DNA of 64,000 nt, taken from positions 368,938-432,937 of the forward strand of contig CAVVBB010000003.1 of the NCBI GenBank assembly GCA_963746475.1, given 5' to 3'. Source of the stretch: an uncultured delta proteobacterium (lineage in GTDB: Bacteria > Myxococcota_A > Polyangia > Polyangiales > Houyiibacteriaceae). Position numbers and translations under genes: made by a program. The notes under the pieces were generated by a model, which was given only the letters and a program-made list of their open reading frames with translations, ran no database searches and was not told the origin of the DNA. Positions 3,160-26,441 of this stretch are shown here, in pieces (position 1 is the stretch's first letter; the number at the start of each line of letters is the position of its first letter).

Positions 3160-5622
3160 ATGAGACGCTCTTACCTGCTCTTGGCCCTGGCGGTGACCCT
3201 GTCACTCGGCGGAGCTGCGCTCGCGAGCCGCTTGCAACTCGACTCACGAATCGAAGCGCTTCTTCCGAGCGACTCGCCGTCCGTTCGCGCGCTCGGCACG
3301 CTTCGTGCCCGCCTCGGCATCGACGAGCCGCTGACGATTCTAGTCGATTCCGACGACCCGCAGCGGAGCGCCCACATCGTCGATGCACTGGCGGCTGAGC
3401 TGCAGCAGTGGGACGAGACGCAATGGGTGATGACCGAGTACGGCGTGGAAGCACTGATCGACAGGGCCTTGTTCTACGTCGACTACGAGACCTTGCAGGA
3501 GTGGAACGAGCTCGCCGCGGAGGCGATGGACTGGGAGGTCTGCAAGGCCTCGCCTTTCTGCGTGACCATCGCCGACCCGCCCGAGCTCCCGAGCAGCGAC
3601 GAGGTGCGGGAGGCCATCGAGCGTTCCGCGGCCGGCGCGGCGCTCAAGGAGCTCACCGGAGTGGCGTCTCGGCAAACCCCAGCGGCCTCTCCGACGCAAG
3701 GAGGCCAGCGGCTGTGCGATGACAGCGGCCGGATCTGCGCGGTGCAGGCCATGATGAAGGGATCTGCGGGCGACCTCGGCTATGCACAGCACATCAAGGC
3801 CAAGGCCGAGGCGCTCATCGCCGAGCTGAGCCCGGCTGGCAGCGCGAACGCGCGCATCGTCGTCAGCGGTCGGTACCGAAACGCACCACTCGAGCACGAA
3901 ATCACGCGCGCAGACCTGTCGCGCGTCTCGCTCATCGCCTTCGCGGGTCTCATGCTCATCGTGCTCGCCTTCTTTCGGGACCTGCGCGCACTGCTCCAAC
4001 TGAGCCTGCCCGTCCTGAGTGGCCTGGCCGCCAGTCTGGGGCTCATCGCGCTCATTGAACCGAGGATCAATCTCATTAGCGCCTCCGCGCTCGCGATCCT
4101 GGCTGGGATGGGCATCGACTTCGGGATCCATTTGCTCATGCACTTTCGCGCCGCTCGCGCGGACGGGGCGCAGACGCAGACCGCTGCCTTGGACAGCGTA
4201 CGCGGCCTCTGGGTCTCTCTGCTCGTCGCGGGCCTGACCACTGCCTGTGGGTTCGCAGCCCTGGCCATCAGCGACTTTCAGGGCTTCTCTCAGATGGGCT
4301 GGATGGCCTCACTCGGGATCGTCGTGTGCCTGCTTTGGACGCTCGCCAGCTTCCCCGGCCTGATGCTGCTCATTCCCGGAGGCCTCGGACGACGCTTCGA
4401 GGCGCGCGCCGCGCAAAACGGAGCCAGACGCCACTGGGCTCTGGGCGTGCTCCTGCTCGCCTTCATCTGCGTGCCGCTCACTCTGCCCGTGGAGTTCGAA
4501 CGCGACTTCCAAGCCCTTCGGCCGTCGTCGATCAGCCACGGCATCGACTCGGCGAGTGTCATGCGCGCGCGCAAAGGCGTGTCCGTGTATGTGATCGGGG
4601 ACGACCAGGTCTCGGTCGAAGCCGCGCTGGACGCCGACAAGCTCAGCGCGAGCGCCGGCGACGCCCTCGGCCTGAAGCCCACGGTCGTCTCGGCCAGCGC
4701 GCTCTTCACACGCGACGCCGACGCCAAGGCTGCGCTCATCCAGAACATGAGAGACACCCTGGAGCGCGCCCGAAAGAAGGCCGAAGGGCGAGAGGACAGC
4801 GCGCAGCTCGCCGAGCTCGCGGAGTTCGAGCCCTGGCTGGCGGTCGAGGGCAAGCCAGAGCCTTCGCAGCTCCCGCCCTGGCTAGCTTCCGCGCTCGTCG
4901 ACGTCGAGGGCCAGATCGGGCACAGCGGCATCCTCTACCTACAGATGCGTGGCAGCGACGCAGAGGCCATGGAGCGGCTCGCCCGCTGGCTCCAGCAGCA
5001 GCGCGAGGCGCACCCGCAAGTCAGCTTCGCCTCCGCCGAGCCTCTACTCGGCGAAATCACGCCCTCACTCCAACGCGACGCGCCCTTCATCCTGGCGCTC
5101 GTGTTCCTCGGGCTCATCCTGGCCACCGCCCTGGCGAGTCGTTCCTACGCCGTCACGCGGGACGTGGTGCTGGCCACACTGCTGACGGGCTTGCTTCTGC
5201 TCGCGGCCCTGCGGCTGTTCGACTTGAAGCTCCACCTCTACAACCTCTTGGCCCTACCCGTGGTCATCGGCTTGGCCGTGGACGGTGCCGTCCATGTGCG
5301 CTGGGCGCGGACCCATGCAGACCCCGCTCACCGCTACACCGCGTACCGTGCCGTCGCGGCCTCGACGCTCACTTCGCTCGTAGCCTTCCTGAGCCTGCTC
5401 ACGGCGGAGAGTCCCGGTCTACGGTCACTCGGCCTGCTCGGCGCCCTCGGCCTGGCCCTCTCACTGCTGGTGAATCTACTCTGGCTGCGTGACTGGTGCC
5501 CGGTGGAGCCGGCCATGGGCACGGCGTCTGGACGACAGCCGGCAGGAGACCCTGGCCCGCCGGCGACCGGGGCGCAGTTTTCCGACATGGAAACCTTTGA
5601 CAGTCAGGGAGCCACAGGCTAG
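3160..5622 (+). CDS. RND-superfamily / MMPL-type exporter (HpnN-like lipid or glycolipid exporter)
   Basis: 820 aa with an N-terminal anchor. It has two transmembrane bundles, each preceded by a large soluble domain, with internal-repeat motifs ...AGMGIDFGIHLLMHF... and ...VIGLAVDGAVHVRW.... Confidence 0.75.
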   Translation: MRRSYLLLALAVTLSLGGAALASRLQLDSRIEALLPSDSPSVRALGTLRARLGIDEPLTILVDSDDPQRSAHIVDALAAELQQWDETQWVMTEYGVEALIDRALFYVDYETLQEWNELAAEAMDWEVCKASPFCVTIADPPELPSSDEVREAIERSAAGAALKELTGVASRQTPAASPTQGGQRLCDDSGRICAVQAMMKGSAGDLGYAQHIKAKAEALIAELSPAGSANARIVVSGRYRNAPLEHEITRADLSRVSLIAFAGLMLIVLAFFRDLRALLQLSLPVLSGLAASLGLIALIEPRINLISASALAILAGMGIDFGIHLLMHFRAARADGAQTQTAALDSVRGLWVSLLVAGLTTACGFAALAISDFQGFSQMGWMASLGIVVCLLWTLASFPGLMLLIPGGLGRRFEARAAQNGARRHWALGVLLLAFICVPLTLPVEFERDFQALRPSSISHGIDSASVMRARKGVSVYVIGDDQVSVEAALDADKLSASAGDALGLKPTVVSASALFTRDADAKAALIQNMRDTLERARKKAEGREDSAQLAELAEFEPWLAVEGKPEPSQLPPWLASALVDVEGQIGHSGILYLQMRGSDAEAMERLARWLQQQREAHPQVSFASAEPLLGEITPSLQRDAPFILALVFLGLILATALASRSYAVTRDVVLATLLTGLLLLAALRLFDLKLHLYNLLALPVVIGLAVDGAVHVRWARTHADPAHRYTAYRAVAASTLTSLVAFLSLLTAESPGLRSLGLLGALGLALSLLVNLLWLRDWCPVEPAMGTASGRQPAGDPGPPATGAQFSDMETFDSQGATG

Positions 5623-5658
5623 AAGTGCCCTCCTCGAAGGCGAAGCCTTCAAGCCCAA

Positions 5659-5735
<77 letters not shown>

Positions 5736-5770
5736 AAGCCCAGCTCATTCGAGCTGGGCTTTGCTCTTTC
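5736..5770 (+). terminator. Intrinsic terminator hairpin after tRNA-Asp
   Basis: AAAGCCCAGCTC-attc-GAGCTGGGCTTT is a perfect 12-bp stem. It is followed by the T-containing tail gctctttc. Confidence 0.7.
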
Positions 5771-5963
5771 TGGGCCTCGCATCCGGCCGTCCAGCAGTCC
5801 GGCAGTCGAGCTCCGCCGGTAGAGCGACCGGCGCTCCGGGCGGGCACCGCGTCGACTAGCTCCGTCCGCAGTCCCGGCTGAGGAGAGGTCGAGGCTGGTG
5901 CAGGCCTCTTCGTCCCTACTCAAAATCGCTTGCGGAGGGAGGTCCCCAGTGATAGGGAGCCGC

Positions 5964-5984
5964 TATTGATTTTCACTTTCAATA
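5964..5984. promoter_or_regulatory. AT-rich inverted repeat TATTGA-N9-TCAATA upstream of the lipoprotein/imelysin operon (candidate operator)
   Basis: A perfect 6-bp dyad in a locally AT-rich stretch. It ends 17 nt before the ATG at 6001 and just before the CAGGAG Shine-Dalgarno sequence. Confidence 0.3.
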
Positions 5985-6000
5985 TCAGGAGTGCTCCAAA

Positions 6001-7506
6001 ATGAAACCTGTTTGCCTTGTCGTGATGGGAACTCTCGTGCTGTTCGCGAGTCTGGCAGGCTGCGGCGACGACAGCACCCGTAGCGGCGGCCTTGGCGGAA
6101 ACGTAGAGGTCCCGGAGACTTATCAGTTCGAGCGCGACGGCGCTTCGACCGTCGTCCACGACGGACAAACCACGCGCCAGGTCCTCATCGCCGACCTGAG
6201 CGACCTGATGAAGAGCATCAGCGCGGACGTGCTGGCTGGAGAGAACCTGGGTCGCTACGACACGGCGGACGAGGTCTACGCCCTGCTCTTCGCCCTCTAC
6301 TCCGATGGTGCTCTGGCCGACCCCAACCGCGCGATTCCCAGCTTGGTCGCCGAGGGAGACGACACGCTTCAGTCGGTCTACGCCAATCTGGGCGACGCCA
6401 ATTTGAAGGCCAAGCTCGCCGGCAACGATGCCGTGACCGACCACAAAGACTGGGACGGCGACCGACGGGACGACGACCCCGACACGAACGGGGCGCCCCA
6501 ATTCGTCGGCTGGAGTGAGGCGAACCTCGTCATCGACGGCAGCGGAAACACCGGCGAGGTCCGAAGCCCCGAGGCGCTGCTGCTTGGCCTCTTCCACAGC
6601 TTCGCCGACCAGGTCGCCGCCGCTGCGACCGGAAGCTCCCCCTTTCCCATGGACGCGACGCTCCCTCTATACCTGACTCCCGAAGGTCTGGACCTCGCGC
6701 AGCTCGTGCAGAAGTTCCTGCTCGCTGCGGTCAACTTCAGCCAGACGAGCGACGACTATCTCGATGACGACGTCCCAGACAAAGGTCTGCTCGCGCCCAA
6801 CGTGCTGGCTGAGGATGCGAACTACACTCAGCTCGAACACGCTTGGGACGAGGGCTTCGGCTACTGGGGCGCCGCTGCCGACTACAGTGAGTACAGCGAA
6901 GACGAGGTCGCTGGCGAGGGCGGCCGCCCCGAGTACGCCAACGGATACTTCGACAGCGACGACGACGGTCTCATCGACCTGCGGAGCGAGTACAACTTCG
7001 GCGCCTCGGTGAACGCGGCCAAGCGCGACCGCGGAGCCAGCCGGTCGACGGACTTCAGCGCACAGGCCGACCTGGCTTGGAGGACGGGCCGCGCTCTGAT
7101 CACGGACGCCTACGAATCGGGCGACGAAGTCGATCTGGACGCCTTGCGACAGGCACGCCTCGAGGCGCTTCTCAACTGGGAGAAGGCCTACGCGGCCACG
7201 ATGATTCACTACATCAACGAGGTGCTCACGGACATGGACAGCATCGGCGCAGAGTACAGCTTCGCCGACCACGCCAAGCACTGGTCCGAGCTCAAAGGCT
7301 TTGCGCTGAGCATCCAGTTCAACCCCTTTTCGCCGATGTCCGAGGAGGACTTCGGGATCCTCCACGACCGCCTCGGCGACCGACCGGTCGGGGCTTCGCC
7401 CACGAACGCTGAGAACAATTCCACGTATCGCGCGGACCTTCAGAACGCACGCGCCCTGATTGGAGAGACCTATGGCTTCGACTCAGACAACATCGACAAC
7501 TGGTGA
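6001..7506 (+). CDS. Secreted acidic lipoprotein, unknown function (possibly the DUF4856-type partner of imelysin loci)
   Basis: Signal peptide with lipobox LAGC. Asp-rich segments include DDYLDDDVPDKG and FDSDDDGLIDL. It is the first gene of a tightly packed operon. The family name comes from memory of the usual gene neighbourhood and was not verified. Confidence 0.65.
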   Translation: MKPVCLVVMGTLVLFASLAGCGDDSTRSGGLGGNVEVPETYQFERDGASTVVHDGQTTRQVLIADLSDLMKSISADVLAGENLGRYDTADEVYALLFALYSDGALADPNRAIPSLVAEGDDTLQSVYANLGDANLKAKLAGNDAVTDHKDWDGDRRDDDPDTNGAPQFVGWSEANLVIDGSGNTGEVRSPEALLLGLFHSFADQVAAAATGSSPFPMDATLPLYLTPEGLDLAQLVQKFLLAAVNFSQTSDDYLDDDVPDKGLLAPNVLAEDANYTQLEHAWDEGFGYWGAAADYSEYSEDEVAGEGGRPEYANGYFDSDDDGLIDLRSEYNFGASVNAAKRDRGASRSTDFSAQADLAWRTGRALITDAYESGDEVDLDALRQARLEALLNWEKAYAATMIHYINEVLTDMDSIGAEYSFADHAKHWSELKGFALSIQFNPFSPMSEEDFGILHDRLGDRPVGASPTNAENNSTYRADLQNARALIGETYGFDSDNIDNW

Positions 7507-7513
7507 GCCGATT

Positions 7514-8734
7514 ATGCGGCAGCGCTGGAAGAGGGCCGCGCTCTGCCTGTTGCTCGCGACGTCCTTGACCGGATGGAGCGGATGCGGTGGTAGCGGTGAA
7601 GGCGGCCCGGACCCTTCCTGTCTCGAAGGCGACCCGCGTGCGCAGGTCGTGGCCTCCATCGGGCAGTCTCTGATCGTGCCGAGCCAAGAGGCTTTTGCTG
7701 AAAAGGCTGCAGCTCTCGAGAGCGCCCTCCGCACGGCGGCCGCTGCTCCCGAAGATGTGAGCGCGAAAGAAGCCGCGCAGAGCGCGTGGCGCGAAGCCAT
7801 GACTCAGTGGCAGGCCGTCGAGTTGATGCTCGTGGGCCCCGCTCTTCCATCGGACAAGATGGGCGGCCAAAATCTGCGAAGCCAGATCTACAGCTGGCCC
7901 AACACGAGTCTTTGCCTCGTCGACCAGCAGACGGTGCAGGACGGGCACGACGACCCGAACGCTTTGGCCGAGATCGCCGGCGGACCACGTGGCCTGTCCG
8001 TCATCGAGTACTTGCTGTTCACAGACGGCACCGAGCACCACTGCACCCCACTGCACAGCATCAACGAGGTCTGGGAGACGATGCTGGATGAGCTTTCCGA
8101 ACGGCGTCTGGCGTATGCGGCCGCGCTGGCCGAGCTGGCTCGGCAGAGTGCAGACGAGCTCGTCGAGGCCTGGTCACCGGAGGGCGGCAACTTCATTCGA
8201 GAGCTCAGCGATCCCTGTCGGCGCGACTCCGTGTACGGCACCGCCCAGGAGGCGCTCAACGAGATTTCCAACGGCATGTTCTACCTCGACGGCGAGACCA
8301 AGGACATGAAGCTCGGCGAACCGGCCGGCCTCAGCCTGAACGACCCGGACGTCTGCCCGGAGATCGGAACATGTCCCGCGCTTCTGGAGTCCCCCTGGGC
8401 GGAGCACAGCAAGCAGAACGTCGTCGCCAACCTCGAGGCCTTTCAGACGCTGTTTCTCGGTGCGGCGCCGGGCACCGATGAGCCTGGCTTCGACGACCTG
8501 CTCGCCAGCGTGAATGCCGCGGACGTCTCCACGAGCATGAGCTCGGCGATCGCGGATGCCATCGTCGCGGCAGAGGCCATCCCCGGCACCCTGAAGGACG
8601 CGCTCGAGAGCGACTTTGCTGCAGTTCAGGCCGCCTATGACAAGACCAAGAGCGTGACCGATCTGCTGAAGAACGAGTTCCTCTCGGCACTCGACCTCTC
8701 CATGCCCGATCGGGCCGCGGGCGACGACGACTGA
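7514..8734 (+). CDS. Imelysin-like (peptidase M75 / IrpA-like) periplasmic lipoprotein
   Basis: ATG at 7514 gives MRQRWKRAALCLLLATSLTGWSGC (lipobox). The helical two-lobe signature WREAMTQWQAVELMLVGP and GLSVIEYLLF matches the imelysin GxHxxE region, with Ser in place of His. Confidence 0.75.
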   Translation: MRQRWKRAALCLLLATSLTGWSGCGGSGEGGPDPSCLEGDPRAQVVASIGQSLIVPSQEAFAEKAAALESALRTAAAAPEDVSAKEAAQSAWREAMTQWQAVELMLVGPALPSDKMGGQNLRSQIYSWPNTSLCLVDQQTVQDGHDDPNALAEIAGGPRGLSVIEYLLFTDGTEHHCTPLHSINEVWETMLDELSERRLAYAAALAELARQSADELVEAWSPEGGNFIRELSDPCRRDSVYGTAQEALNEISNGMFYLDGETKDMKLGEPAGLSLNDPDVCPEIGTCPALLESPWAEHSKQNVVANLEAFQTLFLGAAPGTDEPGFDDLLASVNAADVSTSMSSAIADAIVAAEAIPGTLKDALESDFAAVQAAYDKTKSVTDLLKNEFLSALDLSMPDRAAGDDD

Positions 8735-8741
8735 GACCGAG

Positions 8742-10154
8742 ATGCTCTCGAAGATCCGCGCGCAGCTCCTGGCACCACGAGACCTCGCTTCGCTGGCGGC
8801 ATACCGCTTCATGTTCGGCAGCTTGCTCTGCCTGAGCAGCCTGCGGTTCCTCTGGAACGGCTGGGTCGAACGCTTCTACGAGCAGCCGAGCTTCTTTTTC
8901 AAGTACTACGGCTTCGCCTGGGTAGAGGTTTTGCCCGCCCCCTGGATGACCGTGGCTTTCGTCACCTTGGCCATCCTCGGGGCGTGCGTGGCCTTCGGTT
9001 TTCTGTACAGATTCTCGATCGTCGCCTTCTTCTTGCTCTTCACCTACGTCGAGCTGATCGACGTCACGAACTACCTGAATCACTACTACCTGGTCAGTCT
9101 GCTCTCTTTGCTGATGTGCTTCTTGCCGCTGAACCGAGCGTACTCCATCGACGCTCGGCTGTGGCCGGAGCGAGCCTCTGCGACCGTTCCGAGCTGGGTG
9201 CACTACCTGCTGCGCTTTCAGGTCGGCGTGGTCTACTTCTTCGCCGGCATGGCCAAGCTACAGCCCGATTGGCTACTGCACGCGCAGCCGCTCGGCATCT
9301 GGCTGGCCTCGCGTACCGAGACACCGCTGCTCGGGCCGCTGCTCAGCCTTCCGATCATGCCTTTCCTGATGAGCTGGGCAGGCTTTGTGTTCGATACCTT
9401 CATCGTGGCCTTCCTGCTGTGGCGCAGAAGCCGCCCCTACGCCTTCGCGGCCGTGATCTCGTTTCACGTCTGCACGCACCTGCTCTTCGTCATCGGGCTG
9501 TTTCCGTTCCTGATGGTCTGTAACGCCACACTCTTCTTCGAGCCGGATTGGCCCGTCCGGCTTTGGAGCCGGCTCAGCGGCAAGACCCCAGAACAGCTGT
9601 CGCACTCCCTCCCGAGGAACCACCGGCCACGCTGGTCCGCATGGGGCGCAACGGCCATCGCGCTTTACTGCCTGGTGCAACTGGCCCTTCCGATGCGCGC
9701 GCTGGCTTACCCGGGCAACGCGCTCTGGAACGAACAGGGCATGCGGTTCGCCTGGCGCGTCATGGTGCGCGAAAAGAACGGCTCCATCCTGTATCGCGTG
9801 CGCTGGCACGGCCGCGACACCGAGCTTCGCGTGCCACCGCGAAAGTACCTGACCGCACACCAGGAACGCGAAATGTCGGGGCAGCCCGACCTGATTCTGC
9901 AGCTGGCCCATCGCATCGCCGAAGACTTCGAAGCCCAAGGTCGGCTGGACGTGCAAGTCCGCGTGGACGCGCTCGTCTCGCTCAACGGGCGCCGAGCAGC
10001 GCCGATGATCGACCCCAACACAGACCTTGCAGCTCAGCGGGACGGCCTCGGTGTCATGAGCTGGATTGAACCGAGCCCGCGCTCGAAACCCTTGCCCGCC
10101 AGTCGAAAACATCGCGAGCAGCGCATAGCGCTACAGGCCCCAGACTCCCCTTGA
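8742..10154 (+). CDS. HTTM domain protein (vitamin K-dependent gamma-carboxylase-like integral membrane protein)
   Basis: The N-terminus LAAYRFMFGSLLCLSSLRFLWNGWVERFY is followed by multiple transmembrane helices and a C-terminal soluble domain. This is the typical bacterial VKGC-like HTTM architecture. Confidence 0.8.
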   Translation: MLSKIRAQLLAPRDLASLAAYRFMFGSLLCLSSLRFLWNGWVERFYEQPSFFFKYYGFAWVEVLPAPWMTVAFVTLAILGACVAFGFLYRFSIVAFFLLFTYVELIDVTNYLNHYYLVSLLSLLMCFLPLNRAYSIDARLWPERASATVPSWVHYLLRFQVGVVYFFAGMAKLQPDWLLHAQPLGIWLASRTETPLLGPLLSLPIMPFLMSWAGFVFDTFIVAFLLWRRSRPYAFAAVISFHVCTHLLFVIGLFPFLMVCNATLFFEPDWPVRLWSRLSGKTPEQLSHSLPRNHRPRWSAWGATAIALYCLVQLALPMRALAYPGNALWNEQGMRFAWRVMVREKNGSILYRVRWHGRDTELRVPPRKYLTAHQEREMSGQPDLILQLAHRIAEDFEAQGRLDVQVRVDALVSLNGRRAAPMIDPNTDLAAQRDGLGVMSWIEPSPRSKPLPASRKHREQRIALQAPDSP

Positions 10155-12716
10155 GCTTAGACGTGACTTCAGCCCGTATCCGAAACGCGCTCTTGCAGAG
10201 CGTTCTAGCCCTCTCACTGATCAGCGCTTGCGCACTGCTGTGGCGCACGCCAGCCGCCCTTGCACAGGAAGAGCGGCCGACGGTCGAGCCGAAGCCGCAA
10301 GGCGCAGCTGAGCCTCCGCCGGCCGGAGAAGCCGCCGCGCCGGCCGGCGCCAGCGATGCCGAGAACCAGGTCCCGGCGGCCCCCGAGGGGTCGGCTGAAG
10401 ATGCCGCGGCTCCGTCCGCGACCGGACCGGACATGCTGGACGAGGAGCTTCGCAGGCTCGACGAAGAAGTCTTTGGCGAGGACGAGCCCGCGGCCCCTGT
10501 AACGCCCACCCCTTTGGCGCCCAACGAACAGGCGGCCAGCAAGACTGAAGGAGCCGTGCCAGAGCTCCGCGAAGTCACCGTACGCTACAAGCCCGAGGAC
10601 ATCTTCCGCATGGGCGGTTCGGTTCAGACCCTCGGCGAGGAACAGCTGCAGAAGATGCAGTACGACGACCCGAACGCCGTCGTCGTGCAGCTCCCCGGTG
10701 TCTACGTCCGCCAGGAAGACGCCTTTGGCTTACGGCCGAACATCGGGATGCGTGGCGCAAGCTCGGATCGGAGCCGCAAGTTGACGCTCATGGAGGACGG
10801 CGTCCTCTTCGGCCCAGCGCCGTATTCTGCGCCCGCGGCATACTACTTCCCCATCATGAACTTCATGACAGGCGTCGAGGTGTTCAAGGGGCCAGCCTCC
10901 ATCCTGTACGGGCCCAACACCGTCGGTGGCGCCTTGAACCTGCTGAGCCGAGAGGTGCCGGAAGAGCCAGAAGGCCAGATGGAGATCGCCTACGGCCGCT
11001 TTCAGTACATCAGGGCCCACCTGCACTATGGCGCCCACAACGACTGGGGTGGCTTCCTCATCGATGGGATTTACCTGGGCAGCAAGGGCTTCAAGGACAT
11101 CGACGGGGACTACGGCACGGACAACACGGGCTTTCAGCGCAGCGAGCTCATGCTGAAGGGGTACGTCAACACCAAGCCGAGCAAGCACGTCTACAACCGA
11201 CTCGAGCTCAAGCTCGACGCTCGGCCGGGAGCGCTCGAACGAAACCTACCTGGGCCTCAGCGACGAAGACTTTCGCGACGACCCCTACAGACGCTACGCG
11301 GCGAGCCAACTCGACAACATGCGCTGGTGGCGAACGGCTGTGCAGCTTCAGCATGACCTGGCAGTCGGAGACCACGTCACACTGCAAACCACGGCCTATC
11401 GGCACGACTTCCAACGAACCTGGGAGCGGCTCAACCAGTTCAGCAGCGAGGTGCCGACGCTGCTGCAGACCGTTACCAACCCCGACGCCTACGGAAACCA
11501 CTACCGAACGCTCACTGGCGAGCAGGACTCTGCCGACAACTTCCCGCAGCCCATCAACCTACAGGTCATCAACAACGAGCGCGACTTCGTCGTGATGGGT
11601 GTTCAGACCAGCCTGCGCGCAGATTTCGACACCGGCGAGCTGGAGCACGAGATCGAATCCGGGCTTCGCTTTCACTATGACTCCGTCGACCGCTTCCACC
11701 CCAACGACGTCTATGCGATGCAAAGTGACCAGCTCGTGTTTCAAGGCGAAGGCGCGCTGGCGACCGACAACAAGGGCGAGGCACAGGCCCTGGCCGGCTA
11801 TCTCATGTATGGCCTGCAGTTCCGCGGCTTCACGGCCAAGCCTGGCATTCGCGTGGAGTACATTCGCACGTTCTTCGAAAACGAGCTGGACCCCGACGAC
11901 ACCAGCCGCGTCAAAGGAAAGCCGCAGATCGTCCCGCTTCCGGGCCTCGGCCTTCAGTACAGCATCACCGACGAAATCGCAGTCCTCGCCGGCGTGCACC
12001 GTGGCTTCAGCCCCGTGTCGCCAGAGAGCCGCGCGCCGGCGGACGGCTCGGGCGACGGTGACTTCGCCGACCCCGAGCTCTCGGTCAACTACGAGGCCGG
12101 CGCTCGGTACGGCACTGAGTCCGGCCTCGCCTTCGGAGAAGTCATCGGCTTCTTCAACGACTACAGCAACATCACGGGCACCTGCACCGGCTCCGCCAGC
12201 TGCGCACCGGACCAGCTCGACCAGCAGTTCAACGGAGGCCGCGCCTTCATCGGCGGCGTCGAGCTGCTCGGCGGCTACACGCTGGTCCTGCCCCGGGAGT
12301 TCGCCATGCCGCTCCGCGGCACGTACACGTATACGAACGCGAGCTTCCGAACGAGCTTCGACTCGGCGGATCCCGTATTCGGAAGCGTGGAGAAGGGCGA
12401 CGAAGTCCCCTACGTTCCGCGCCACCAGTTCAACCTGCAGGTCGGCCTCGAGAAGAGCTTCTGGGCCGTGTACACGACGGGAACCTATTACGGCAGTATG
12501 CGAGAGGGCCAGGTCGTCCCCGGCGGCCAAGACCTCCCGCGCACGGACGACTACTTCGTCCTCGACCTCATGGGCCGCATCCGCTTCGAGCCCATCGAGG
12601 CCTACCTGCGCCTTCAGAACGTCACCAACGCCCAGGCCATCGTCGCCCGGCGCCCCTTCGGCGCACGCCCCAACGCCCCCTTCACGGCGCAGCTTGGCGT
12701 GCAGGTGACGTTCTAG
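10151..12716 (+). pseudogene. TonB-dependent outer-membrane receptor, interrupted by an apparent +1 frameshift near 11220-11231
   Basis: The plug motifs (VVQLPGVYVRQE, NIGMRGASSDRSRKLTLMEDGV) lie in the 10151 frame. The barrel sequence (ERSNETYLGLSDEDFRDDPYRRYAASQLDNMRWW ... terminal VQVTF) continues in the frame of the 11319 ORF, which is open back to about 11190. Confidence 0.75.
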
Positions 12717-12793
12717 TCTGAGTCGTGGCCGTTGGCTCGAGGGCTCATACGCCAGGATTTCCCTCATGATTTTGGGCAACAATTCGCCTTGTT

Positions 12794-12812
12794 GAAAACG
12801 ATTATCAGTGTC
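12794..12812. promoter_or_regulatory. Fur-box-like sequence upstream of tonB
   Basis: GAAAACGATTATCAGTGTC matches GATAATGATwATCATTATC at 15 of 19 positions (hand count). It lies in an AT-rich patch 15 nt before the tonB GTG. Confidence 0.35.
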
Positions 12813-12826
12813 AGGATGCGCTCGCG

Positions 12827-13585
12827 GTGTCCCTCTCGGCGCGATACGGCAGCTTTCTGATTCCTTCGCTGATGATCCATGGGGTCATCTTCAGCGCGCT
12901 GGCCAGCGTGCGTCCGGAGGACGAAAGCGCGCGGGTTCGAACCGTGGAATTCACATTGATCACGGAGCTCGGCGGAGGCCGTCCGGGCAATGACGAGCAC
13001 ATCGGCGACGCCGTGGCGCCGATGCCGGAAACGGAACGAGAGCTCTTCAAAAAGGTGTCGCCGGAACCGAGGAAGGCCCGCAAGCCGCTCGCCATCGCCC
13101 CTGCGCCGACTCCGAAGGAGTCTAGGCAGGATTCCGAACGAGCCAGCACGGACGGCGCCGCGGAAGGTCCGGACGCTCAGGACTCCAAGGCTTCGTCGGG
13201 CGGCGCATCGACGATGTCGGGGAGCGCTGGCAGGGATCCGAACGCCACGGGTTCCGGCTCGGGGCTCGGGGGTCAAGGGGTGGACCGGCGCTCGGCACTT
13301 CGCGCGTGGATTCGGCAGCTTCAACGCGAGGTGAACAAACTCGCGACGCGCAACTATCCGCGAACCGCGGTGCGCATGGGGCTGGAAGGCCGCTTGCGCC
13401 TCGCGCTCATGATCGCCGAGGACGGGACGATCCGTAGCGTGCGACTGCTCACTTCATCCGGCCACGCGGTGCTCGACGAAGCGGCCAGCGAAGCCGTGAT
13501 GCGAATCCGCGTGCCGGCCCCGCCCGCGGAGCTCCAGTGGACCGAGCGCGAAATCCCACTGCCGATTCGCTACAGCCTCAACTGA
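12827..13585 (+). CDS. tonB: Energy transducer TonB
   Basis: N-terminal transmembrane helix, a Pro/Lys-rich spacer (PEPRKARKPLAIAPAPTPKE), and a C-terminal TonB domain (RNYPRTAVRMGLEGRLRLALMIAEDGTIRSVRLLTSSGHAVLDEAA). Confidence 0.85.
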   Translation: MSLSARYGSFLIPSLMIHGVIFSALASVRPEDESARVRTVEFTLITELGGGRPGNDEHIGDAVAPMPETERELFKKVSPEPRKARKPLAIAPAPTPKESRQDSERASTDGAAEGPDAQDSKASSGGASTMSGSAGRDPNATGSGSGLGGQGVDRRSALRAWIRQLQREVNKLATRNYPRTAVRMGLEGRLRLALMIAEDGTIRSVRLLTSSGHAVLDEAASEAVMRIRVPAPPAELQWTEREIPLPIRYSLN

Positions 13586-13622
13586 GCGCCGAGCGAGGAC
13601 CGGACAGCCAGAGCCCTGCGCG

Positions 13623-14297
13623 TCAGTCGTGGTCGCCCGCAGCCGCGGCCTCCGCCGTCGAACCTGCTCCGGTGGCATAGAGCTTCACGGCCTTCTGATA
13701 TTCGGCAGAATCTGGCGAAACGGCTGTCCACTCCCCTTCGAGCTGCTCACACTGACGCTCGAACGACGGGTCGTCGATGGCCGTCTTCGGGTTGTAGTAC
13801 TTGTACGTGACGAGGACTTTGCCGATCGTCGCGTACTCCCTCATGAAGGCCCGCTCTTCCTCGCTCATCTCCTTCGGCGGGGCGGCGCCGAGCGGGACCT
13901 CGTAGCTGCACTGGGACAGTGCCGGGCGGTCACGAAAGCTGTCATCGCAGCCGTTTGGGACGAACTCCTTTTCGTCGTCCCACCTAACCAGCACTTTCGC
14001 GAACAAGCCCTTCAGGATTTGCAGCTGCCCCTCGGCAAGGGGCGTCTCCTGGGTCGAGGGAACCACCATCTGGATGCGGGTGCAGCGGCTGAGCCCTTCC
14101 GCGCTAGCGTCGGAGAGCTCGACCGCGGGACCGGTCCAACCTTCGAGCTCGACGAGCGCATGCGTCGCCTCGGAAGGCTTGAGCGGGGCTTGCCTCTGCG
14201 CCGACGGCGCCTTTGAAGCCGCGGCCTCGGAAGCCGGCCCCTCTTGGCTCTTACTGCAAGCGCTCAGGCAGAGCGTCAGGATCAGCAGGTATCGCAT
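13623..14297 (-). CDS. Lipoprotein, unknown function
   Basis: The internal ATG at 14297 gives MRYLLILTLCLSAC (lipobox). The longer track ORF (to 14699) runs antisense into trpE and is rejected. Confidence 0.7.
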   Translation of the reverse strand: MRYLLILTLCLSACSKSQEGPASEAAASKAPSAQRQAPLKPSEATHALVELEGWTGPAVELSDASAEGLSRCTRIQMVVPSTQETPLAEGQLQILKGLFAKVLVRWDDEKEFVPNGCDDSFRDRPALSQCSYEVPLGAAPPKEMSEEERAFMREYATIGKVLVTYKYYNPKTAIDDPSFERQCEQLEGEWTAVSPDSAEYQKAVKLYATGAGSTAEAAAAGDHD

Positions 14298-22375: not shown

Positions 22376-23920
22376 TCAGTACCAGCCGCCAATCCCGAGT
22401 GAGACCGCTCGGTAGCCGCGCGCGAAGTCGAGTGCCGTGCTGATCTGCCAAAGGTAGTCCTCGGGCCACAGCCCAAACACGTCCCACTTCAGCACGCGAA
22501 CATCGGCCCCGAAGGTTCCGTGCCAGCGAGCCTCGGACGCCGCGAAGCGACTCGGTTCCATGTACGTGCCAGCTCGAAGCTTCATGCGCTTTGGCCAGGC
22601 CTCCGTCTCGACGCCGATTTTTGGAGAAACGGTGATGTTCTGGCCCGAACGCTGCACTGTCTGAAAGATGAAGGACTCGACTCCGACCCCTTCTCGAACG
22701 CGCCCAGTGATCTGCAAGTCGGTGGTAACCAGGAAATACCAGCGCGGCCACTCGTTCCGATACCGCTCTCGCAAGGTCTTCCAGGCTGCATATTTGATGT
22801 CTTTGCGCTGCTGATCCACGCGGTCGTATTTCTGCGCATAGCGGCCCCGCACCTTTGCCAGGCAGGCCTCGACCTCGGGTCCGCCACGGGCCCGGACCGC
22901 AGAGAGCTCACGCTCCTCCGCGTCGCGCGTCTCGGCCTCGCGTCGCGCCAGGCGCGCCAAGTCCTCGGCAGCCAGCTCCTCGGCCTGAATCCAGGGCGGA
23001 TTCGTCGGACGCGGACCAAACTGGTACGCAAACCCGACCGAGCCCGTGTGCGGAAGCTCGGTGTTCTTGGGCAGGTAGATTCCAGCGACGACGATGTTCC
23101 CATCCTCGTCGACCTCGGCGTTACCGCGCCGCTGCCCGCCTGTATCGATGCTCGGATAGAACGAGGCCCCGAGGCGATAGCGCTTTCCATGGGGTCGAAA
23201 CATGACGCCCAGCTCCGAGCCCACGCCGAGCGCGGCGTATGCCTCGTCGTCTTTTCCGAGCGCTTTTTCACCCACGAGAATGCGTTCCCGCAGTAAACGA
23301 ACGCCCGCGCCGAGGATCAGCTGCCCATCCAAGAAGCCGTAGCCGAGCTGGATGTGAAACGTCGTGAACCGCAGGCGCAGCCGGTCCTGCTCACCGGTCG
23401 ATGGGTTCGTCAGACCGTCGAGTGTGACTCGCTGAGAGTCGATCGTAAGCCCCAGGCCGAAGTTCCACATCTGCCAGTACGCGCCAGGGATGAAAAACAG
23501 GAACTCCGCGTCATCCCGCGTGCTCGGATCCCCGCCGGTCACGTTCCCGCTGTTGTAGAAGTCCCCCGTATCAAACGGATACGTGACGCCAAAAGCGAGC
23601 CAGTAGTCATACCAATCGGGCCACTGCGGACCTCTCCAGGCCACCGCCGCCGGGTTCTGTAGCCCCCCTTCGACCCCCTCGGCAATGGCGGTCGCCGCAC
23701 CGGAGAGTCCCGTCACGCGCGAAGTGCTGATGACCGGGCCACGGGAGAGATCCACCGTGTAGTCAGAGGTCGTGATCGGGGCGCCGTCTGGACCGAGTTG
23801 CGCGCGCGCCACGCGCGTCGAACCCAACATGACTAGCAGCGCCCCAGTCACCACGGCTGCTCGCACGCAGCCCACCGAGCTCAGAACCCCTCCAGCAACA
23901 CGACCCGCGGTGTACTGCAT
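22376..23920 (-). CDS. Outer-membrane beta-barrel protein (FadL/PorV-like N-terminal motif) with a charged helical insertion
   Basis: Signal peptide ...RVARAQ, alternating beta-strand pattern, and terminal ...SLGIGGWY. The motif GLSGAATAIAEGVEGGLQNPAAVA is present. About 90 aa form a Glu/Arg-rich insert. Confidence 0.7.
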   Translation of the reverse strand: MQYTAGRVAGGVLSSVGCVRAAVVTGALLVMLGSTRVARAQLGPDGAPITTSDYTVDLSRGPVISTSRVTGLSGAATAIAEGVEGGLQNPAAVAWRGPQWPDWYDYWLAFGVTYPFDTGDFYNSGNVTGGDPSTRDDAEFLFFIPGAYWQMWNFGLGLTIDSQRVTLDGLTNPSTGEQDRLRLRFTTFHIQLGYGFLDGQLILGAGVRLLRERILVGEKALGKDDEAYAALGVGSELGVMFRPHGKRYRLGASFYPSIDTGGQRRGNAEVDEDGNIVVAGIYLPKNTELPHTGSVGFAYQFGPRPTNPPWIQAEELAAEDLARLARREAETRDAEERELSAVRARGGPEVEACLAKVRGRYAQKYDRVDQQRKDIKYAAWKTLRERYRNEWPRWYFLVTTDLQITGRVREGVGVESFIFQTVQRSGQNITVSPKIGVETEAWPKRMKLRAGTYMEPSRFAASEARWHGTFGADVRVLKWDVFGLWPEDYLWQISTALDFARGYRAVSLGIGGWY

Positions 23921-25629: not shown

Positions 25630-25721
25630 CGACCGGAAGGTACACCAGGCTCCACTAGGCTGTCTCGGGTCTTGCGCGCCGTTGACCTGAAGTTTTTGCC
25701 GCGCTACCTGGGAATCATTAG

Positions 25722-26441
25722 ATGCCCCAGGACTACCGACATTGGTCACCCCTATTCTTCGCGGCCGTGCTGCTCTTCGCCGCTGGCCACTATGGTTTCG
25801 CGGCGAGCCCGGGAGCCGCGCAGGAACACGGGCCGCAGCCGGTCGAGACGGCACACGAGACGGCAGCGGCCCAGCCTGTGTATTCGAGCCCCAAGGGCCG
25901 CCCACCCCTCGCGAGAACATCGGCCGAGGCCGCCGATGAGCACGGAGAGCATGCTGAGCACGCTGAGCACGAGGGCCACCTGAGGAACGCCATTGGTTTG
26001 GGCTTCGCCTATGCGGCGCAGTGGGTACGGGAAGAAGAGAACCAGGGAACCACCCAGAGCCTCTTCGGCTTTTCACTCCTCTACGATCGCATACTCATCC
26101 CCTCACATCTGGGGATCTCGATTCGAAAGCCGTTTCTCTTTGCTGGCGGCCGCTTCGATTCGCCCCTGGACGTCGTCCTCGAGGGTCTCTTGGAGCGCAA
26201 GCACTGGGAATTCTTCCTGGGCGTGGGTGTGACCCTAAACCTGCGCGCTTTTCAGCGCGAGATGGAGGGCGAGGCCGACGGCGTCAAGCTTTCGTTCGGT
26301 ATCCCCGTAGTGACGGGGGTGAACCTGCTAATTGCTCGTCATTGGTCGGTACAGATGGAAGTCGGCTACGGCTGGACGGTCACCAAAGAACCGGTCAACC
26401 ACGGGTTGAACACCCTCCTGACCGCGCTCTACCACTTCTAA
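25722..26441 (+). CDS. Secreted His-rich protein with small beta-barrel-like C-terminal domain
   Basis: Signal-like N-terminus, a His/Glu cluster DEHGEHAEHAEHEGH, then alternating strands ending ...LLTALYHF (aromatic C-terminus). Confidence 0.65.
   Translation: MPQDYRHWSPLFFAAVLLFAAGHYGFAASPGAAQEHGPQPVETAHETAAAQPVYSSPKGRPPLARTSAEAADEHGEHAEHAEHEGHLRNAIGLGFAYAAQWVREEENQGTTQSLFGFSLLYDRILIPSHLGISIRKPFLFAGGRFDSPLDVVLEGLLERKHWEFFLGVGVTLNLRAFQREMEGEADGVKLSFGIPVVTGVNLLIARHWSVQMEVGYGWTVTKEPVNHGLNTLLTALYHF

What the first reader, a model, noticed from the sequence alone, without database searches (positions are those of the whole stretch)
6001..13585. TonB-dependent uptake locus built around an HTTM (vitamin-K-carboxylase-like) membrane protein and an imelysin-like lipoprotein
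**Operon layout.** Five same-strand genes have 7-110 nt gaps or overlaps. In order they are an acidic lipoprotein (6001), an imelysin-like lipoprotein (7514), an HTTM polytopic protein (8742), a TonB-dependent receptor (10151, with a TTGA start/stop overlap with the HTTM gene), and TonB (12827).

**What is known.** Imelysin/IrpA/EfeO-M75 proteins are implicated in iron uptake. Bacterial HTTM proteins are homologs of the eukaryotic gamma-glutamyl carboxylase and have no established function.

**Inference.** Tight coupling of an HTTM enzyme to an outer-membrane receptor and two secreted Asp/Glu-rich lipoproteins suggests a periplasmic modification or redox step tied to metal or ligand import. 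One possibility is modification of the acidic lipoprotein to create a metal-binding site. The mechanism is undescribed.
Basis: partly seen in the sequence, partly recalled or inferred. Interest (0 to 1): 0.62.

Follow-up and report, generated by a model that had tools for sequence, protein, structure and literature searches.

The report
Iron-regulated uptake operon with vitamin-K-carboxylase-like enzyme
A conserved gene cluster that looks iron-starvation-controlled couples an outer-membrane importer to a periplasmic imelysin-like lipoprotein, which carries an almost invariant acidic tail, and to a bacterial relative of the human vitamin-K-dependent carboxylase, giving that enzyme family a testable role in bacteria.

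Summary
The locus is real. Pfam identifies DUF4856 lipoprotein (6001-7506), imelysin lipoprotein (7514-8734), HTTM plus VKGC-lumenal enzyme (8742-10154), TonB-dependent receptor and TonB (12827-13585).

- **Frameshift.** The receptor is split by one extra G near 11216. An independent assembly has it intact (850 aa), so this is probably an assembly error.
- **Synteny.** In 81 related loci, imelysin sits directly upstream of HTTM in 75 of 76 evaluable cases. A receptor is adjacent in 68 of 71. DUF4856 is present in only 29 of 72 and is often replaced by a DUF5122 propeller lipoprotein.
- **Regulation.** Fur-box-like operators precede the operon and tonB. They are enriched upstream of relatives (26 of 28 loci versus 0.05 expected). 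The same four genes are iron- and Fur-regulated in Riemerella.
- **Enzyme.** The catalytic Lys, His and quinol pocket of human GGCX are conserved in 121 of 121 proteins. The propeptide clamp is absent.
- **New findings.** This imelysin subfamily ends in D-x-D-COOH (147 of 150 cluster representatives). In four marine gammaproteobacterial loci, a fatty-acid-hydroxylase-type oxygenase replaces HTTM.

The iron link is supported. DUF4856 as the HTTM substrate is not; imelysin is the better candidate. The mechanism remains untested.

The parts
5961..5983 (+). Fur-box-like operator (ATTGATTTTCACTTTCAAT; two overlapping 15-mers shifted by 6 nt), 18 nt upstream of the DUF4856 start codon
   Evidence: It is the only match in the window to its own 19-mer with up to 3 mismatches. 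The core TTGATTWTCAYTTTCAA is conserved exactly upstream of the same gene in 9 related loci. It has 4 mismatches to the Fur 7-1-7 consensus. Such sites occur upstream in 26 of 28 related loci, against 0.05 expected per 430 nt.
6001..7506 (+). DUF4856 lipoprotein (501 aa, lipobox LAGC, pI 4.1): the accessory, variable component
   Evidence: Pfam PF16148, E 5e-18. The AF2 model has pLDDT 89.8, is mostly helical, and has no PDB neighbour at E<0.4. It is present in 29 of 72 HTTM loci. All 42 aligned homologues end in Trp.
7514..8734 (+). Imelysin-like (Peptidase_M75) lipoprotein, 406 aa, with the GxxxxE variant of the imelysin motif (G160...E165)
   Evidence: Pfam E 8e-35. The AF2 model has pLDDT 92. 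Foldseek top hits are 4ecg, 3pf0, 7xrx and EfeO. It is adjacent to HTTM in 75 of 76 loci.
8720..8731 (+). Codons for the extreme C-terminal tail G-D-D-D-COOH of imelysin. The subfamily consensus is G-D-N-D.
   Evidence: 78 of 79 loci end D-x-D, as do 147 of 150 representatives of 50%-identity clusters. The tail lies beyond the Pfam domain match, which ends at residue 377. Mean pLDDT of the last 6 residues is 63, against 95 or more before them.
8742..10154 (+). HTTM / vitamin-K-dependent gamma-carboxylase-like polytopic membrane enzyme, 470 aa. The catalytic Lys172 codon is 9255-9257 and the His114 codon is 9081-9083.
   Evidence: Pfam HTTM E 4e-82 and VKGC_lumenal_dom E 3e-43. phmmer to human GGCX structures gives E 1e-36. 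The equivalents of K218, H160, V210, A214, F286, F294 and F299 are conserved in 121 of 121 proteins.
10151..12716 (+). TonB-dependent receptor (FecA-like by NCBIfam). It is interrupted in this window by a 1-nt insertion at about 11216. The likely start is GTG 10163.
   Evidence: Plug and barrel domains fall in two ORFs. The extra G is seen against L082, L001 and L002. The repaired ORF is 850 aa. An intact 850-aa gene is present in the independent assembly.
12793..12813 (+). Second Fur-box-like operator (TGAAAACGATTATCA plus an overlapping site shifted by 6 nt) in the receptor-tonB gap
   Evidence: It is the best match to TGATAATNATTATCA in the whole 64-kb window, with 2 mismatches. The sequence is shown.
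12827..13585 (+). TonB (252 aa)
   Evidence: Pfam TonB_C E 1e-17 and NCBIfam tonB_Cterm. It is found in the cluster only in the closest clade, 9 of 81 loci.

Best explanation
**What it is.** This is a TonB-dependent iron-acquisition module that looks Fur-type (iron-starvation) controlled.

**Conserved core.**
- A FecA-like outer-membrane receptor.
- A periplasmic imelysin-like lipoprotein ending in an almost invariant acidic tail, ...G-D-N/D-D-COOH.
[quoted passage not shown] It keeps the catalytic lysine, the histidine and the hydroquinone pocket. It lacks the propeptide-binding clamp of the animal enzyme.

**Accessory parts.** The DUF4856 lipoprotein is interchangeable and is probably a ligand-capturing partner of the receptor. 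TonB, under its own Fur-like box, energises the receptor in this lineage.

**Proposed working (inference).**
1. The receptor delivers Fe(III), free or weakly chelated, to the periplasm.
2. Imelysin binds it there.
3. The HTTM enzyme uses (mena)quinol plus O2 at the periplasmic face of the inner membrane to act on or with imelysin. It fills the slot that EfeB or cytochrome-c-peroxidase-type enzymes occupy in other imelysin systems.

**The specific step I favour (about 0.3).** The enzyme uses quinol-driven carbanion chemistry on an acidic residue of imelysin. The flexible D-x-D tail is the prime candidate. The result would be carboxylation to a malonate-type chelating residue that holds or strips iron.

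**Shown here:** gene identities, synteny, conserved catalytic residues, the conserved tail and the Fur-like operators. **Shown elsewhere:** iron and Fur regulation of the orthologous cluster. **Inferred:** the substrate, the chemistry and the route across the inner membrane.
For: **Identities.** Pfam and NCBIfam assignments.

**Synteny in 81 loci, the best of at least 574 species-representative genomes that carry a relative.**
- Imelysin is directly upstream of HTTM in 75 of 76 evaluable loci.
- A receptor is within the cluster in 68 of 71.
- The taxa include Myxococcota, Bradymonadales, Binatia, Nevskiales-like Gammaproteobacteria, Planctomycetota and Bdellovibrionales.

**Regulation.**
- The operator ATTGATTTTCACTTTCAAT is conserved exactly in 9 close loci.
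- More distant loci carry canonical Fur boxes such as TTGATAATCATTATCAA at the same place.
- 26 of 28 loci have a site with 4 or fewer mismatches upstream, against 0.05 expected.
- The best Fur-like site in the window precedes tonB.
- Riemerella RAYM_09779-09794 (receptor, VKGC, imelysin, hypothetical protein) rise by log2 2.1-3.1 without iron and by 1.4-1.9 in a fur mutant (PMC5609570).

**Enzyme competence.**
- The alignment to human GGCX has E 1e-36.
- Functional residues were taken from the cryo-EM paper.
- The equivalents of K218, H160, V210, A214, F286, F294 and F299 are invariant in 121 of 121 proteins. Those of N159 and G259 are conserved in 120 of 121 and W223 in 119 of 121.

**Imelysin as the partner.**
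- The genes lie 7 nt apart here and overlap in relatives.
- The D-x-D-COOH tail is present in 78 of 79 loci and 147 of 150 cluster representatives.
- The tail lies beyond the Pfam domain match and is predicted to be flexible.

**Precedent for Asp as a substrate.** MloH acts on an aspartyl residue.

**Possible inner-membrane route in a relative.** A divergently transcribed ABC transporter (periplasmic binding protein, permease, ATPase; domain set reads as FbpABC-like) lies next to the operon in L085.
Against: - No experiment shows any protein modification.
- The enzyme lacks the C-terminal half of the animal lumenal clamp that binds the substrate propeptide.
- Three residues of the human Glu pocket are changed and fixed in this subfamily: Y395 to M, N158 to L, and R436 to E.
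- The D-x-D tail is equally conserved in four gammaproteobacterial clusters that have no HTTM. Those carry a fatty-acid-hydroxylase-type oxygenase instead.
- That oxygenase's His boxes are predicted to face the cytoplasm, by a crude positive-inside count. The tail may therefore serve the receptor or bind metal directly, rather than being an enzyme substrate.
- The Leptospira VKGC orthologue was reported to epoxidise vitamin K without detectable carboxylase activity (Rishavy et al. 2005, from my own knowledge, not re-read here).
- No inner-membrane permease is encoded in the window.
- The receptor is frameshifted in the window as given.
Confidence: 0.6

Rival explanations
1. **Redox-partner model.** The HTTM enzyme does not modify a protein. 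It is the oxidant- or electron-handling partner of imelysin, like EfeB (DyP peroxidase) or the cytochrome-c-peroxidase-like proteins of other imelysin operons. It would link the membrane quinol pool and O2 to a redox step on iron. That step could be oxidation of Fe(II) for binding by imelysin, or reduction and release of Fe(III) from an imported chelate.
For: - Xu et al. [quoted passage not shown] Here HTTM fills that slot.
- In Marinobacter, Shewanella, Ferrimonas and Pseudoalteromonas loci the slot is filled by another membrane O2-dependent enzyme of the FA_hydroxylase family. This suggests the shared requirement is oxygen or electron chemistry rather than carboxylation as such.
- The quinol pocket is fully conserved while the Glu pocket is altered.
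Against: - No member of the VKGC/HTTM family is known to act on a metal ion, and no metal site is evident.
- The conserved equivalents of N159 and H160 bind a substrate carboxylate in the human enzyme.
- The model does not explain the invariant tail.
Confidence: 0.25
2. **First reader's model.** HTTM modifies the acidic DUF4856 lipoprotein to create a metal-binding site.
For: - DUF4856 is very acidic (17.8% Asp+Glu, pI 4.1).
- It has many invariant Asp, Glu and His residues.
- It is encoded in the same operon here and in the closest relatives.
Against: - DUF4856 is detected in only 29 of 72 HTTM loci.
- In Myxococcus, Sorangium, Spectribacter and others its place is taken by an unrelated DUF5122 beta-propeller lipoprotein.
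- DUF4856 also occurs in clusters that lack HTTM altogether.
- An obligatory enzyme-substrate pair would not be this separable.
Confidence: 0.06
3. **Small-molecule model.** The enzyme acts on an imported organic ligand rather than on a protein. It would carboxylate, epoxidise or otherwise transform a siderophore-like or carboxylate chelate brought in by the receptor, in order to free the iron. MloH acts in the same way on a small-molecule aspartyl intermediate.
For: - MloH is a precedent for a non-protein substrate.
- The propeptide clamp is absent.
- The receptor is FecA-like by NCBIfam, and FecA transports ferric citrate.
- The altered Glu pocket points to a substrate other than a Gla domain.
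Against: - No biosynthetic genes for a ligand lie in or next to the cluster in the window or in the relatives inspected.
- The strict coupling to imelysin and the invariant tail remain unexplained.
Confidence: 0.1
4. **Different-cargo model.** The module imports something other than iron, such as another metal or a quinone/vitamin-K-like compound used by the enzyme. The Fur-like boxes would then belong to another Fur-family regulator (Zur, Mur or PerR).
For: - The window's operator differs from the Fur consensus at 4 of 14 positions.
- Fur-family boxes resemble one another.
- One relative has a copper-binding MopE-domain gene downstream.
Against: - Several relatives carry canonical Fur boxes.
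- The Riemerella cluster responds to iron and to fur deletion.
- Imelysin and EfeO relatives are iron-linked.
- An ABC transporter with an FbpABC-like domain set is adjacent in L085.
Confidence: 0.05

Closest known systems
[quoted passage not shown]
   Same: - Homologous over residues 9-445 (E 1e-36).
- Both Pfam domains are present.
- The catalytic Lys (K218 equivalent), H160, N159 and the naphthoquinone and isoprenyl pocket residues are conserved.
- By homology the active site faces the non-cytoplasmic side.
   Different: - 470 aa versus 758 aa.
- It ends at about human residue 505, so the second half of the propeptide-binding clamp is missing.
- Y395 is M, N158 is L and R436 is E.
- It has no Gla-domain substrates.
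- It is encoded in an iron-regulated uptake operon.
[quoted passage not shown] 2018, as cited)
   Same: - A bacterial HTTM enzyme with a demonstrated carboxylase role.
- It acts on an aspartyl residue rather than glutamyl.
   Different: - MloH sits in a polyketide/non-ribosomal-peptide antibiotic cluster and acts on a small-molecule intermediate.
- It has a fused region corresponding to DUF5819.
- It was not compared by sequence here.
Riemerella anatipestifer RAYM_09779-09794 (PMC5609570)
   Same: - Four contiguous genes are annotated as TonB-dependent receptor, vitamin-K-dependent gamma-carboxylase, imelysin lipoprotein and hypothetical protein.
- They are induced by iron restriction and in a fur mutant.
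   Different: - It belongs to a different phylum (Bacteroidota).
- The genes are only listed in a table and were never analysed as a system.
- I could not obtain the sequences, so the tail and the DUF4856 identity are unchecked there.
Imelysin-peroxidase iron systems: EfeUOB, P. aeruginosa PA4370-PA4373 (ICMP), V. cholerae VC1264-1266, Leptospira LIC10711-10714
   Same: - An imelysin-fold protein is present. The top structural matches are 4ecg, 3pf0, 7xrx and EfeO.
- They are Fur or iron regulated.
- Imelysin is paired with an oxidant-handling enzyme.
   Different: - There is no EfeU permease, no DyP peroxidase and no di-haem peroxidase.
- The partner enzyme is a membrane quinol/O2 enzyme.
- A TonB-dependent receptor is part of the core.
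- The imelysin has the GxxxxE variant of the motif and a subfamily-specific D-x-D tail.
- The Leptospira imelysin cluster is of the thiol-oxidoreductase type, not HTTM.
HTTM-DUF5819 predicted complex (bioRxiv 10.64898/2026.08.19.745780)
   Same: It is another bacterial HTTM protein predicted to work with a dedicated partner protein encoded next to it.
   Different: - The HTTM architecture is different (HTTM plus a DCC1-like domain).
- The partner is different.
- There is no receptor, no imelysin and no iron context.

Membership tests
HTTM / vitamin-K-dependent carboxylase family | Significant match to the HTTM membrane domain and the VKGC lumenal domain | tested here: met
   PF05090 E 3.7e-82 and PF22777 E 2.7e-43, both far above the curated cut-offs. 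phmmer to human GGCX gives E 1e-36 over residues 9-445.
HTTM / vitamin-K-dependent carboxylase family | Catalytic base Lys218, plus His160 and the hydroquinone-binding pocket | tested here: met
   K172, H114, V164, A168, F241, F249 and F254 are invariant in 121 of 121 subfamily proteins. N113 and G214 are conserved in 120 of 121 and W177 in 119 of 121.
HTTM / vitamin-K-dependent carboxylase family | Glu pocket (N158, N159, H160, Y395, R436) and the propeptide-binding clamp (to about residue 730) as in animal GGCX | tested here: not met
   Only the N159 and H160 equivalents are kept. Y395 is M, N158 is L and R436 is E. The protein ends at about human residue 505. It is a family member but not an orthologue in substrate recognition.
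HTTM / vitamin-K-dependent carboxylase family | Quinol epoxidase and/or carboxylase activity | not testable with these tools
   This needs biochemistry.
Imelysin-like (Peptidase_M75) superfamily | Pfam match and the two-domain helical imelysin fold | tested here: met
   PF09375 E 8e-35. The AF2 model has pLDDT 92. Foldseek hits 4ecg, 3pf0 and 7xrx at E 7e-9 to 3e-7 (TM-score 0.62-0.66 on the query, 0.63-0.82 on the target), and then EfeO.
Imelysin-like (Peptidase_M75) superfamily | GxHxxE functional motif | tested here: not met
   The window has G160-L-S-V-I-E165 and relatives mostly have G-L-D-A-L-E. The His is replaced, as in the GxxxxE variant family that Xu et al. 2011 describe.
TonB-dependent receptor | An N-terminal plug and a 22-strand barrel in one polypeptide | tested here: inconclusive
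   Both domains are present but lie in two reading frames in the window. Relatives and an independent assembly have them intact.
EfeUOB-type iron transporter | An EfeU/FTR1 permease and an EfeB DyP peroxidase encoded with the M75 protein | tested here: not met
   None of the operon genes or flanking ORFs scanned with Pfam in the window, nor the genes of the related loci with precomputed Pfam hits, matches FTR1 or DyP.
Fur regulon | A Fur-box operator at the promoter and iron/Fur-dependent expression | tested here: inconclusive
   Fur-like boxes lie at 5961-5983 and 12793-12813 and are enriched upstream of relatives. Expression evidence exists only for the Riemerella orthologues. No binding or expression data exist for this organism.

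The most novel reading that the evidence does not exclude
A bacterial vitamin-K-dependent-carboxylase homologue post-translationally carboxylates the invariant C-terminal Asp-x-Asp tail (or another acidic residue) of its periplasmic imelysin partner. The substrate is a protein and the cofactor is menaquinol plus O2. The product would be a protein-borne, malonate-type Fe(III) chelator that takes iron from the TonB-dependent receptor. This would be the first vitamin-K-dependent protein modification in bacteria and a new principle of iron capture.
Probability: 0.22. Interest if true: 0.9.

Novelty: new variant of a known kind. Interest (0 to 1): 0.68.

Why it matters
**An open question becomes testable.** Bacterial homologues of the vitamin-K-dependent carboxylase have been known for two decades. 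Outside one antibiotic pathway they have no physiological role.

This locus and its relatives place one large subfamily in a defined context. At least 574 species-representative genomes carry a relative, and the imelysin partner subfamily has about 580 protein clusters at E<=1e-30. The context is an uptake module that looks iron-starvation controlled, with one constant protein partner that carries an invariant acidic tail.

A single experiment addresses the question: mass spectrometry of that partner with and without the enzyme.

**It also widens the picture of imelysin systems.**
- The peroxidase partner can be replaced by two other kinds of membrane O2-dependent enzyme.
- A TonB-dependent receptor can be part of the core.

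**Practical relevance.** The cluster occurs in a veterinary pathogen (Riemerella) and in myxobacteria used for natural-product discovery.

Tried and rejected
- **DUF4856 as a hidden imelysin paralogue.** Profile-profile comparison aligned only the signal peptides. The confident AF2 model had no PDB neighbour below E 0.4. phmmer against PDB found nothing. Rejected.
- **The Leptospira VKGC orthologue sitting in the LruB imelysin cluster.** LIC10712 is a thiol oxidoreductase of the peroxidase type, so that cluster is the classical kind. Rejected as a link.
- **Genome-context statements in Xu et al. 2011.** That paper mentions neither TonB nor HTTM.
- **Sigma-70 promoter scan of 5600-14000.** No site was found. 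This is uninformative for this GC-rich organism.
- **Terminator scan.** The only convincing site is the hairpin after tRNA-Asp (5734-5763), which marks the upstream boundary.
- **Taxonomy of the D-x-D-tailed imelysin clusters through cluster names.** No organism names were returned.
- **Bacteroidota sequences.** They could not be fetched. The tail and the DUF4856 identity of the Riemerella genes are therefore unverified.
- **Complex prediction of enzyme plus imelysin.** It is not possible with the single-chain tool.
- **Chance adjacency of the five genes.** Rejected on the synteny counts.

Full report
**1. What is in the sequence**

The region holds same-strand ORFs at 6001-7506, 7514-8734, 8742-10154, 10151-11356 plus 11319-12716, and 12827-13585. 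Pfam assigns them as follows:
- DUF4856 (E 5e-18)
- Peptidase_M75/imelysin (E 8e-35)
- HTTM (E 4e-82) plus VKGC_lumenal_dom (E 3e-43)
- TonB-dependent receptor Plug and barrel
- TonB_C (E 1e-17)

NCBIfam places both receptor halves nearest to FecA-type and siderophore receptors, well below the equivalog cut-offs. Both lipoproteins are acidic: 17.8% and 15.8% Asp+Glu, with pI 4.1 and 4.2.

A tRNA-Asp (5659-5735) followed by a strong hairpin (5734-5763) marks the upstream boundary. Downstream genes are on the other strand. The other large ORFs scanned in the window are ordinary chromosomal genes: glycosyltransferases, coaBC, topoisomerase subunits and a molybdopterin oxidoreductase.

**2. A correction: the receptor is frameshifted here**

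The receptor occupies two frames. Alignment with three relatives shows one extra G at about 11216. Removing it restores ...LKLTLGRERSNETYLGLSDEDF... and an 850-aa ORF.

The window's DUF4856 protein is 100% identical to a protein from a 627-kb public contig. An independent Logan assembly of read set ERR12037369 carries that identical DUF4856 protein and the other four genes at the same lengths, with an intact 850-aa receptor that starts 8 nt after the HTTM stop. The frameshift is therefore most likely an assembly error or a minor variant. The receptor start is probably GTG 10163 rather than the TTG at 10151.

**3. Synteny**

A scan of one genome per species found at least 574 genomes with a relative of the HTTM protein. 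The best 80 loci were fetched. With tblastn of the window proteins against these loci plus L001:
- Imelysin lies directly upstream of HTTM on the same strand in 75 of 76 evaluable loci.
- A related receptor is in the cluster in 68 of 71. It is downstream on the same strand in 52, divergent upstream in 14 (the Myxococcaceae layout) and convergent in 2.
- DUF4856 is present in 29 of 72.
- TonB is present in only 9, all in the closest clade.

Where DUF4856 is missing, the slot holds a DUF5122 beta-propeller lipoprotein in Myxococcus, Sorangium, Spectribacter and L031. The taxa include Myxococcota, Bradymonadales, Binatia, Nevskiales-like Gammaproteobacteria, Planctomycetota and Bdellovibrionales. 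Precomputed Pfam calls on other contigs show the same order.

The conserved core is therefore receptor, imelysin and HTTM. DUF4856 is an interchangeable accessory.

**4. Regulation**

An AT-rich palindrome, ATTGATTTTCACTTTCAAT (5965-5983), sits 18 nt before the first start codon. It has no other match in the window. Its core is conserved exactly at the same place in nine related loci, whose DUF4856 and imelysin proteins are mostly only 50-64% identical to the window's.

More distant loci carry canonical Fur boxes there, for example TTGATAATCATTATCAACA and TTGATAATCATTATCAATATCAAT. Sites with 4 or fewer mismatches to TGATAATNATTATCA occur within -400 to +30 of the first gene in 26 of 28 loci. 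The rest of the same loci give 0.05 per 430 nt.

The best such site in the whole window (TGAAAACGATTATCA, 2 mismatches, 12793-12807) lies in the gap before tonB, with a second site shifted by 6 nt. This suggests that tonB has its own iron-controlled promoter.

In Riemerella anatipestifer the contiguous genes RAYM_09779-09794 are listed among Fur-regulated genes. They are annotated as TonB-dependent receptor, vitamin-K-dependent gamma-carboxylase, imelysin lipoprotein and hypothetical protein. Their log2 ratios are 2.1-3.1 under iron restriction and 1.4-1.9 in the fur mutant with iron (PMC5609570). That paper does not discuss the cluster.

**5. The enzyme**

The protein aligns with human GGCX over residues 9-445 (E 1e-36). 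I used the residue roles from the cryo-EM study (bioRxiv 10.1101/2025.02.09.637231) and an alignment of the window protein with 120 homologues.

| Group | Human residue | Window equivalent | Conservation |
|---|---|---|---|
| Catalytic base | K218 | K172 | 121/121 |
| Substrate carboxylate / quinone pocket | H160 | H114 | 121/121 |
| Substrate carboxylate | N159 | N113 | 120/121 |
| Quinone pocket | V210, A214, F286, F294, F299 | V164, A168, F241, F249, F254 | 121/121 each |
| Quinone pocket | W223 | W177 | 119/121 |
| Quinone pocket | G259 | G214 | 120/121 |
| Glu/Gla pocket, changed | Y395 | M334 | M in 115/121 |
| Glu/Gla pocket, changed | N158 | L112 | L in 121/121 |
| Glu/Gla pocket, changed | R436 | E377 | E in 121/121 |

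The protein stops at about human residue 505, so the second half of the propeptide clamp is absent.

My reading is that the quinol/O2 chemistry is retained and the substrate differs from animal Gla proteins. From my own knowledge, not re-read here, the Leptospira orthologue was reported to epoxidise vitamin K without detectable carboxylase activity (Rishavy et al. 2005). MloH is a bacterial orthologue that carboxylates an aspartyl residue of a small-molecule intermediate.

**6. The imelysin partner and its tail**

The AF2 model (pLDDT 92) matches solved imelysin-fold proteins: 4ecg, 3pf0, the ICMP structure 7xrx, and EfeO. The functional motif is the GxxxxE variant (G160...E165), without the His.

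The extreme C-terminus is almost invariant.
- 78 of 79 loci end D-x-D, and 69 of them end GDND. The window has GDDD.
- A whole-library phmmer search found 580 50%-identity clusters at E<=1e-30. Of the best 150 representatives, 147 end D-x-D.
- In an alignment with 39% mean column identity, D404 and D406 are among only 13 invariant columns.
- The tail lies beyond the Pfam domain match, which ends at residue 377 of 406.
- Its predicted confidence drops to 63 after 95 or more. That is what one expects of a flexible peptide that docks elsewhere.

**7. A second, unexpected variant**

DUF4856 homologues in Marinobacter, Shewanella, Ferrimonas and Pseudoalteromonas sit in clusters of DUF4856, imelysin, receptor and an FA_hydroxylase-family protein (PF04116, a His-box di-iron membrane oxygenase). 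These clusters have no HTTM. Their imelysins keep the tail, SAGDND or AAGDGD.

HTTM is thus replaceable by another membrane O2-dependent enzyme. A crude positive-inside count puts the hydroxylase's His boxes on the cytoplasmic side. By homology, the GGCX-type active site faces the periplasm. This argues against both enzymes modifying the same periplasmic residue, and I cannot explain the replacement fully.

No paper in the library holds 'imelysin' together with 'HTTM' or with 'sterol desaturase'.

**8. How it most likely works**

Firmly supported: this is an iron-starvation uptake module with receptor, imelysin and a catalytically competent VKGC-type enzyme as its core.

Inferred:
- The receptor brings Fe(III) into the periplasm.
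- Imelysin, like its EfeO and IrpA relatives, binds the iron.
- The enzyme takes the place of the peroxidase partner that Xu et al. found with almost all imelysins.
- Transfer across the inner membrane is not encoded here. One relative has a divergently transcribed ABC transporter with an FbpABC-like domain set next to the operon.

For the enzyme's step I favour action on imelysin itself, at about 0.3. The family's only established chemistry is carbanion formation next to a carboxylate. The equivalents of the human residues that hold the substrate carboxylate (N159, H160) are kept. The two genes are translationally coupled. The partner offers an invariant, flexible, carboxylate-rich tail.

The main rival, at about 0.25, is a redox-partner role without protein modification. 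That model fits the hydroxylase replacement better.

**9. Novelty and verdict**

- The iron link and the HTTM coupling are supported.
- The proposed substrate is not.
- The cluster type is widespread and appears once in a published Fur-regulon table, but it has not been described as a system in the literature I could search.
- I class it as a new variant of a known kind: an imelysin-type, TonB-dependent iron system with a new class of enzyme partner.
- Its value is that it makes the function of bacterial vitamin-K-carboxylase homologues directly testable.

Noticed in passing
window 11216 (within 10151-12716): A single extra G splits the TonB-dependent receptor into two reading frames. An independent assembly of ERR12037369 has the gene intact at 850 aa, so this is probably an assembly error in the source contig.
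   Followed up: yes
L084 5685-11821; L088 1605-8020; L089 1674-7993; L090 1617-7987: In Marinobacter, Shewanella, Ferrimonas and Pseudoalteromonas the same DUF4856-imelysin-receptor module carries an FA_hydroxylase-family membrane oxygenase instead of HTTM. The imelysin keeps the GDND/GDGD tail. The reason for this enzyme swap is unexplained.
   Followed up: partly
L032 6070-7800 (-); L060 5559-7274; L031 6016-7572; L071 5900-7522 (-): Where DUF4856 is absent, a DUF5122 beta-propeller lipoprotein occupies the accessory-lipoprotein slot next to imelysin and HTTM. One of these has a collagen-like N-terminal repeat.
   Followed up: partly
window 6001-7506: All 42 aligned DUF4856 homologues end in Trp, and the window protein and four gammaproteobacterial homologues end ...N-W. 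The family has many invariant Asp, Glu and His residues (for example D251, D252, D255, H280, D283, E284, H403), which may form a metal site. The confident AF2 model has no structural neighbour in the PDB.
   Followed up: partly
L085 3139-6977 (-): An ABC transporter (periplasmic binding protein, double permease, ATPase with a TOBE domain), whose domain set reads as FbpABC-like, is transcribed divergently from the DUF4856 operon in one relative. It is a candidate inner-membrane route that is missing from the window.
   Followed up: no
window 5659-5763: tRNA-Asp (GTC) is followed by a 13-bp terminator-like hairpin directly upstream of the operon's promoter region. The same tRNA and hairpin precede the operon in the closest relative, L082.
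   Followed up: partly
window 3160-5622: An MMPL/RND transporter most similar to the hopanoid transporter HpnN and the sterol transporter BstA, well below the equivalog cut-offs, lies upstream of the tRNA.
   Followed up: no
window 13623-14219 (-), 22376-23920 (-), 23995-26076 (-): One short ORF just downstream of tonB on the opposite strand and two large ORFs have no Pfam match.
   Followed up: no
window 8742-10154: The window's HTTM protein had no 100% match in the 5.8-billion-protein search (best hit 88%), although the neighbouring DUF4856 protein did. The Logan contig does list a 470-aa HTTM gene. This is probably a limit of the word-index candidate selection.
   Followed up: no
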